Origin: Centroscyllium fabricii
Taxonomy: Eukaryota
Assembly: GCA_051313645.2 (NCBI GenBank)
Contig: JBNRSN020000011.1
Span: 120,838,001 to 120,902,000 of the forward strand
Length of the DNA: 64,000 nucleotides
Reading direction: 5' to 3'
Part shown: one piece after another, positions 33,850-34,924 of the stretch
Numbering within the stretch: the stretch's first letter is position 1
Layout of the letters: each line of letters opens with the position of its first letter
Position numbers and translations under genes: made by a program
Notes under the pieces: model-generated
What the model was told of the DNA's origin: nothing
Seen by the model: the letters and a program-made list of their open reading frames with translations, nothing else
Databases searched by the model: none

Positions 33850-34503
33850 AAAGAGGTATAAAGTCTTGACTAATTCAGAGGAAATTGCTCTCCAACCTGT
33901 GATGGAGATCAAAATAAGTCCTCGGCGACCACAGTGACTGTGAGACACATCGCCCCAGTATCCCTTCTACCTTTTGTACGCTGTGATATCAGCCACAGCT
34001 ACGAGCCCAAACTCGTCCAGCTCCCTGTTGAATGTTTACAGCAAATCTGCAGTCATTGCAAAACTGGCGATTTCTTCCAAAAGTCAATAATGTCTGCAAA
34101 AAGAAAAATCTACTAACATCTAACCTAGATGTGTGCTTATGTAACTTATCGGCAGATCCCCTGATTCTCCTAACCTGAGCAGTTCAAATAGTCTATCCAC
34201 ATGTACACTGTATAGTCTCTTCATTGTTTTAAAGGCCTCAATCAAATCTCCCCAAAGTCTGTACTTGTCTCCAGTAAAAAACCGAGCTCTCTCAAGCCTA
34301 TTGTGATAAAATAATGTGCCATTAAGCAAGTTATCAATCTAGTGGTCCTTATCTGAACCTTTGCCAGAGCCCCTATAAAGGCTACCATGTGAGGGGACCC
34401 AAACTGACAAGTATTCTAGATGAGTTCCAACCAAGGTCTTAAATAAGGACAAATGCAAGAAGTCACACAACACCAGGTTATAGTCCAACAGTTTTATTTA
34501 AAA

Positions 34504-34541
34504 TCACAAGCTTTCGGAGCGTCTGCCCCTTCGTCAGGTGA
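34504..34541 (-). ncRNA. minimal hammerhead ribozyme motif
   Basis: UCAC-CUGACGA-A-GGGGC agac GCUCC-GAAA-GC-UU-GUGA, with stems I and II and a palindromic AGCU stem III. Confidence 0.8.
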
Positions 34542-34638
34542 AGTGTCGAGATTCATTTAAACAAAGCACATATATAGAGAGAGACCACATTGTTCTCTCT
34601 CTCTATATATGTGCTATGTTTAAATGAATCTTGACACT

Positions 34639-34676
34639 TCACCTGACGAAGGGGCAGACGCTCCGAAAGCTTGTGA
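34639..34676 (+). ncRNA. minimal hammerhead ribozyme motif
   Basis: The same sequence on the plus strand. Predicted cleavage is after 34672. Confidence 0.8.
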
Positions 34677-34924
34677 TTTTAAATAAAACTGTTGGGACTA
34701 TAACCTGGTGTTGTGTGACTTCTTGCATTTGTCCACCCCAGTCCAACACCGGCACCTCCACATCTTAAATAAGGACAATATGGAGCTTTTTGTTTTATAT
34801 CGGATCATCCTAGCAATACATTTGATTTTGCTAGTGCCTTGTGGCACTGAGTGAACCGTTAGAGGTTCATGTACATAACACCTACATTCTTTTCTCAATC
34901 AAAAGTCTTTAGTTCGGAACCTAA

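What the first reader, a model, noticed from the sequence alone, without database searches (positions are those of the whole stretch)
34437..34778. Palindromic retro-insertion with two back-to-back hammerhead ribozymes
Seen: a ~290-bp near-perfect inverted repeat flanked by a 16-bp direct repeat, with CUGACGA...GAAA-GC-UU cores on both strands (34504-34541 minus, 34639-34676 plus), each followed by AATAAA. Established: PLE pseudo-LTRs carry minimal type I hammerheads with a palindromic stem III that are thought to act as dimers, and PLE insertions can have an inverted terminal repeat. Inference: a non-coding mini-element that yields a ribozyme motif whichever strand is transcribed. Full read-through would instead fold into a ~140-bp hairpin that masks the ribozyme and could feed siRNA or ADAR pathways.
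Basis: partly seen in the sequence, partly recalled or inferred. Interest (0 to 1): 0.8.

Follow-up and report, generated by a model that had tools for sequence, protein, structure and literature searches.

The report
Ordinary head-to-head Penelope retroelement stub
This DNA palindrome is two short tail-end pieces of a very abundant Penelope-like jumping gene sitting head to head, likely built at the moment of insertion by copying RNA from both cut DNA ends, so the two ribozyme motifs are passengers rather than a purpose-built two-way device.

Summary
In detail: a 288-bp inverted repeat, a 16-bp target duplication and a minimal hammerhead on each strand. It is not a replicating palindromic mini-element. 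It is the 3' end of a Neptune-like Penelope-like element (parent RT + GIY-YIG ORF found; 72,924 exact hits of a 43-mer). Turn points differ between copies, and this exact junction is single-copy. The 16 same-loop hits come from a natural 6-bp hairpin and span different subfamilies.

The architecture (inverted pLTR, one-sided tail) is published, and this scan noted it before in other genomes.

What the copies add:
- In 72 of 76 head-to-head pairs, one arm ends at the tail and the other about 35 nt earlier.
- Either arm can be the longer one.
- In 14 of 56 pairs (11 on a stricter count; 0.8 expected) the arms carry different subfamily haplotypes.

This argues against self-priming snap-back as the only route. 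It favours twin priming at the two known RT start sites, at times on two templates. Ribozyme activity, transcription, editing and siRNA are untested.

The parts
34437..34452 (+). Left target-site duplication copy (apparent 16 bp; the last 6 nt also match the element's pre-tail sequence, a probable priming microhomology)
   Evidence: family mode 12 bp
34447..34584 (-). Tail-less inverted arm: 3' pseudo-LTR piece ending at the pre-tail site
34504..34541 (-). Minimal type I hammerhead motif in the inverted arm (predicted cut between 34508 and 34507)
34579..34599 (.). Central junction: 6-bp GAGAGA/TCTCTC microhomology around a 9-nt loop that is a natural hairpin of the parent 3' UTR
34579..34762 (+). 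Tail-bearing sense arm: last ~184 nt of the parent PLE, 97-99% identical to the 29 other fetched copies over the 172-nt query
34604..34610 (+). TATA-like run upstream of the hammerhead, mirrored in the other arm; promoter role untested
   Evidence: inference from PMC3846280 passages
34639..34676 (+). Minimal type I hammerhead motif: stem I 34639-42/34673-76, core 34643-49, extra A 34650, stem II 34651-64, GAAA 34665-68, palindromic AGCU stem III, predicted cut after 34672
34682..34687 (+). AATAAA, part of the family's 3' end; use as a poly(A) signal untested
34729..34762 (+). One-sided PLE 'tail' between the two end classes; in other copies it runs on into TCATG.., the start of the parent ORF
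34763..34778 (+). Right target-site duplication copy
34230..34860 (.). Host sequence: an old dispersed repeat (paralogs 71-79% identical) whose aligned paralogs run on across the site with one copy of the duplicated stretch

Best explanation
This is a 5'-truncated head-to-head insertion of the 3' end of an abundant Neptune-like Penelope-like retroelement, likely made during integration by twin priming and not by copying a ready-made palindrome.

Shown: the parent element, copy number, variable turn points, ~12-bp duplications, one tail end plus one pre-tail end per insertion, either arm the longer, and arms that sometimes differ in haplotype.

Inferred: the RT-endonuclease, probably as a dimer, nicks both target strands ~12 nt apart. 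One 3' end primes cDNA at the tail-end start site and the other at the start site ~35 nt upstream. The two cDNAs stop early, anneal through a short complementarity (here GAGAGA/TCTCTC) and are filled in. Templates mostly come from one source, and in a sizeable minority from two. Both hammerheads are carried along because they lie ~55-90 nt from the start sites. A read-through transcript would bury them in the hairpin.
For: Parent: L032 has an 840-codon frame with RVT_1 (E 5e-08), DKG, YIDD, a C-x4-C-x2-C linker and a GIY-YIG-like motif with two inner cysteines, and it ends in this same 3' sequence. Abundance: 72,924 exact 43-mer hits, control 0.

Arm ends are bimodal among 135 arms in 88 loci. 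One tail plus one pre-tail end is seen in 41 of 43 pairs and 31 of 33; the 4 exceptions lack a duplication. A duplication of 11 bp or more is found in 34 of 43 pairs, against 2 of 212 swapped-flank controls.

The tail-less arm is longer in 15 pairs, the tail arm in 4, 2 undecided. In 8 same-loop copies with both ends visible, the loop-bearing arm lacks the tail that the other arm has; a cDNA that folds back on itself cannot add a tail it never held.

Across 56 duplication-flanked pairs, 50 of 504 common-allele sites differ between arms against 9.9 expected, and 14 pairs differ at 2 or more sites against 0.77. In vitro, a PLE protein cleaves and extends both strands and starts RT at two sites that bound the tail (PMC11167929, parts 1-2 read).
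Against: Arms are far more alike than random partners: 50 discordant sites against 202 shuffled, and 9 of 56 pairs share a rare variant against 0.75. At one C/T site only 4 of 50 listed palindromes are mixed, where ~18 of 46 would be expected at random (one search counted by eye). This also fits self-priming or arm-to-arm conversion for many events.

The window's own arms share a rare variant and show no haplotype conflict, so two templates are not shown for this copy. Three of the 14 discordant pairs rest on a column next to the arm end, leaving 11 without it. Discordance could come from ectopic gene conversion or RT template switching. The 15:4 length bias used a duplication filter that missed some real pairs with a longer tail arm. 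L152 and L153 share one junction and a rare variant at different sites. The in vitro work is on a Poseidon element and saw no strand difference in start sites.
Confidence: 0.7

Rival explanations
1. Self-priming (snap-back): one strand folds back at a small hairpin and copies itself, and endonuclease resolution of the palindromic intermediate leaves the tail on one side.
For: Proposed in PMC3846280 (self-priming) and PMC8557442 (tail from EN resolution) (passages). Junctions often sit on natural hairpins. Most arms are concordant and 9 of 56 pairs share rare variants, as do the window's arms.
Against: It predicts identical arms at birth, yet 11-14 of 56 pairs differ at several subfamily sites (L017, L126, L133, L143, L177). 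The simple cDNA version cannot put the tail on the non-loop arm (8 copies).
Confidence: 0.2
2. A non-autonomous palindromic mini-element that replicates as a unit and gives a ribozyme on either strand.
For: 16 genome hits share this loop. One pair at different sites shares another junction plus a rare variant (L152/L153), so rare copying of palindromes is not excluded.
Against: The window's junction has 1 exact hit; the 2 one-mismatch hits belong to a longer 3' UTR variant. Same-loop copies differ in subfamily and tail side. Inserts range over 134-2902 bp with different turns. The L152/L153 junction has only 2 hits.
Confidence: 0.05
3. Two independent insertions that landed head to head, or a later rearrangement.
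For: The family is dense (about one exact hit per 100 kb) and nests in itself (L130, L150, L152).
Against: One duplication flanks the whole structure and there is no host DNA at the junction. Tail and pre-tail ends are coupled in 72 of 76 pairs (P 4e-17 against 50:50).
Confidence: 0.02

Closest known systems
Inverted-pLTR insertions with a one-sided 30-40 bp tail of EN+ Penelope-like elements (Arkhipova et al. 2013, PMC3846280; Craig et al. 2021, PMC8557442; passages read)
   Same: Head-to-head 5'-truncated copy, tail on one arm only, ~8-13 bp duplication, small palindrome at the junction, tail running into the ORF start.
   Different: Here both arms are reduced to under 200 nt with no ORF sequence. 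Those passages give self-priming or EN resolution as the cause and report no arm-haplotype test.
PAc Poseidon element of Anolis in vitro (Frangieh et al. 2024, PMC11167929; parts 1-2 of 4 read)
   Same: Two RT start sites that bound the tail, cleavage and extension of both strands, predicted dimer, hammerhead in the pLTR.
   Different: Poseidon clade, with the ORF starting inside the hammerhead; here the ATG follows the tail. The parts read do not link the two sites to the two arms of one inverted insertion.
Minimal hammerheads of metazoan PLEs (Cervera and de la Pena 2014, PMC4209133; passages read)
   Same: [quoted passage not shown]
   Different: No difference seen; activity here is untested. 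Reported monomers were inactive and dimers weak.
Non-LTR retrozymes (Li et al. 2026, 10.64898/2026.07.22.740005; abstract and most of Results read)
   Same: Non-coding, pLTR-related, hammerhead-bearing.
   Different: Retrozymes are head-to-tail repeats of a fixed unit; this is a head-to-head single event with variable length.
L1 twin priming (recalled, not from a call)
   Same: Both nicked target strands prime cDNA, and the two cDNAs join by microhomology.
   Different: In L1 the second primer starts far inside the RNA, so the pieces do not overlap. Here both start within ~35 nt, which gives a palindrome.

Membership tests
EN+ Penelope-like element | Single ORF with PLE-type RT (DKG, RT core) | tested here: met
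   L032 840-codon frame, RVT_1 E 5e-08, DKG and YIDD visible; in the parent, not in the window
EN+ Penelope-like element | C-terminal GIY-YIG endonuclease with CCHH | tested here: inconclusive
   Motif with two inner cysteines visible by eye in L032 and L031; no Pfam hit at 0.001; the L032 frame stops inside the domain
EN+ Penelope-like element | pLTR with hammerhead, inverted 5'-truncated copy, one-sided 30-40 bp tail, target duplication | tested here: met
Neptune/Nematis clade | [quoted passage not shown] | tested here: met
   C-x4-C-x2-C in L032; definition from PMC8557442
Neptune clade | RT phylogeny with Neptune rather than Nematis | not tested
   no reference set was built
Minimal type I hammerhead | Conserved core, stems I and II, palindromic stem III; variation confined to tolerated positions | tested here: met
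   among 141 arms the core columns are 96-100% conserved while N7, a G-U/A-U pair and loop II vary
Minimal type I hammerhead | Self-cleavage as a dimer or with protein help | not testable with these tools
   needs an in vitro assay
Non-LTR retrozyme | Fixed-length unit in head-to-tail repeats | tested here: not met
   head-to-head, lengths 134-2902 bp
Replicating palindromic non-autonomous element | Many dispersed copies with the same junction and ends | tested here: not met

The most novel reading that the evidence does not exclude
PLE inverted repeats are the footprint of a twin-priming reaction in which a protein dimer uses the two RT start sites one per target strand. In at least a fifth to a third of events it copies two different RNA templates. 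The tail would then be the spacing between the two start sites, and this genome's tens of thousands of palindromes would be a readout of the PLE integration step.
Probability: 0.45. Interest if true: 0.62.

Novelty: new member of a known kind. Interest (0 to 1): 0.33.

Why it matters
The locus itself is ordinary retroelement debris. The family statistics bear on an open question named in PMC8557442: how PLE tandem and inverted structures and the tail arise. Strict tail/pre-tail coupling, either arm being longer, and mixed-haplotype arms turn that question into a direct test with barcoded donors. The family is also a large potential source of perfect 60-150 bp RNA hairpins in its host's transcripts (untested).

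Tried and rejected
Rfam at gathering score found no hammerhead. The PDB sequence search of the parent ORF gave nothing meaningful.

Expression: no RNA holder listed. The 4 runs laid are contigs and cannot show ends, strand or editing, so nothing is concluded on cleavage or transcription.

A pile-up of arm ends exactly at the hammerhead cut (51 nt from the anchor) was considered. Only 6 of 43 short arms end at 43-51, while 13 end at 79-91, at or just upstream of the core; not pursued further.

Of 54 second-set loci, 21 lacked one end. The 17 inspected mostly have an arm broken by a later insertion or deletion; 4 were not inspected. The site counts were set aside because long-variant and deleted arms misaligned, and were redone. 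That redo dropped 11 second-set pairs, L085, and pairs with under 78 nt of overlap. The anchor search used a best-match mode that can miss a second same-strand anchor.

Literature: Penelope + twin priming + inverted gave 2 listed papers, not about PLE mechanism by title (listing only). Searches showed no arm-haplotype test in their listings. Older subscription papers on Penelope structure are not in the library, and supplements were not read. A look-up of earlier scan notes for twin priming gave nothing.

Full report
Observation. All described features are present. The inverted repeat spans 34447-34734 and the exact 16-bp direct repeat flanks the insert. The RNA folds as one hairpin, z -37.9. 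A hammerhead core lies on each strand, with none expected by chance, and stems I and II form in the isolated motif.

Identity. The right arm matches many places in the 7.2-Gb own genome (1,478 candidates, 40 scored). The 30 loci fetched share the 3' end and are truncated at different 5' points. A 43-mer of the 3' part has 72,924 exact hits. Following a long copy upstream gave L032, with an 840-codon frame carrying an RT (RVT_1, E 5e-08), DKG, a C-x4-C-x2-C linker and a GIY-YIG-like motif. By the definitions in PMC8557442 (passages) this is a Neptune/Nematis-type EN+ PLE; no tree was built. L032 itself begins with a duplication copy, a short inverted arm and then the ORF start. The window copy sits in an old dispersed repeat whose paralogs carry the duplicated stretch once. 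That the host is a cartilaginous fish is a recalled resemblance, not tested.

Is the palindrome a replicating unit? No. I took the first 100 listed hits (one contig, 88 loci, unselected for 5' structure) and found 135 arms and 43 head-to-head pairs, 134-2902 bp long, turning at different places. A pattern for this window's loop gave 16 hits, against 7,606 arms that read straight through it. The loop is a natural GAGAGA/TCTCTC hairpin of the parent, and the 16 mix hammerhead types, short and long 3' UTR variants and tail sides. The window's junction has one exact hit. Against this reading, L152 and L153 share a junction and a rare variant with different flanks and no third copy. Rare copying or conversion of a palindrome centre is therefore possible.

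Anatomy rules. Arm ends fall in two classes, 0-13 and mostly 35-52 nt past a fixed anchor. Pairs have one of each in 41 of 43 cases, and in 31 of 33 in a second set chosen by junction (21 of 54 loci lacked an end, and the 17 inspected were mostly broken by later insertions). All 4 exceptions lack a duplication, and one is a nested insertion. Duplications peak at 12 bp; 34 of 43 reach 11 bp or more, against 2 of 212 controls. The tail-less arm was longer in 15 pairs and the tail arm in 4, with 2 undecided (the filter missed some real pairs with longer tail arms). In 8 same-loop copies the loop-bearing arm is tail-less while the other arm has the tail (L038 read by eye), the reverse of the window.

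Templates. In 56 duplication-flanked pairs, arms differ at 50 of 504 common-allele sites with CpG changes excluded. A generous neutral model expects 9.9 and random partners give 202. Fourteen pairs differ at two or more sites (0.77 expected; 39 for random partners), or 11 if the column beside the arm end is ignored. Nine pairs share a rare variant (0.75 for random partners). Clear cases are L017, L126, L133, L143 and L177. At a C/T site near short junctions, 4 of 50 listed palindromes are mixed (by eye; 59 exist). So arms mostly come from one source but not always. The window's arms agree and share a rare T.

Mechanism. The most likely route is twin priming. Both nicked strands prime cDNA, one at the tail end and one ~35 nt upstream, and the truncated cDNAs anneal at a short complementarity. 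The pieces from the literature are both-strand cleavage and extension, two start sites bounding the tail, and a predicted dimer (PMC11167929). Linking them to the two arms is my inference. Self-priming with endonuclease resolution (PMC3846280, PMC8557442) can account for concordant pairs but not for mixed ones, unless later gene conversion or template switching is added; I could not exclude these.

Ribozymes. The motif fits the minimal PLE hammerhead of PMC4209133 (passages). Among 141 arms the core is near-invariant while position 7, one stem II pair and loop II vary, as expected of selection in source elements. In this dead copy the two motifs are on opposite strands and cannot pair as a dimer within one transcript, and read-through would bury them. 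Outward transcription from the mirrored TATA-like runs is conceivable but has no support here.

Verdict. The feature is real, its architecture is known, and the locus is ordinary. Earlier scan notes on other genomes reached the same class (unchecked AI notes, not evidence). Interest rests on the family-level clue to PLE integration.

Noticed in passing
window 15003-15116 (-); also inside L047: 5S rRNA-like Rfam hit (58.7 bits). A near-identical sequence interrupts a PLE palindrome in L047, so it is probably a 5S-derived SINE.
   Followed up: partly
43 pairs from L052-L140: Short arms pile up 68-91 nt from the anchor (22 of 43), in or just upstream of the hammerhead core. This may mark the RNA 5' end or an RT stop.
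   Followed up: partly
L152 and L153 (G000:C700, 75.57 and 80.89 Mb): Two palindromes with the same junction and rare variant but different flanks; possible rare re-copying or conversion.
   Followed up: partly
G000:C1:82.68-82.70 Mb: Regular array of alternating-orientation PLE copies, probably a tandem duplication of a palindromic insertion.
   Followed up: no
L017, L126, L177: Arm differences are concentrated in the hammerhead core while the flanks agree, suggesting mosaic exchange of ribozyme cores between lineages.
   Followed up: partly
L031 1800-4550 (-): LTR-retrotransposon-like gag, RT and integrase ORF pieces.
   Followed up: no
window 30850-31700: Tandem minisatellite-like repeat that gives long open frames.
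   Followed up: no
window 35560-37400 (-): Fragmented LINE endonuclease and RT frames next to the insertion.
   Followed up: no
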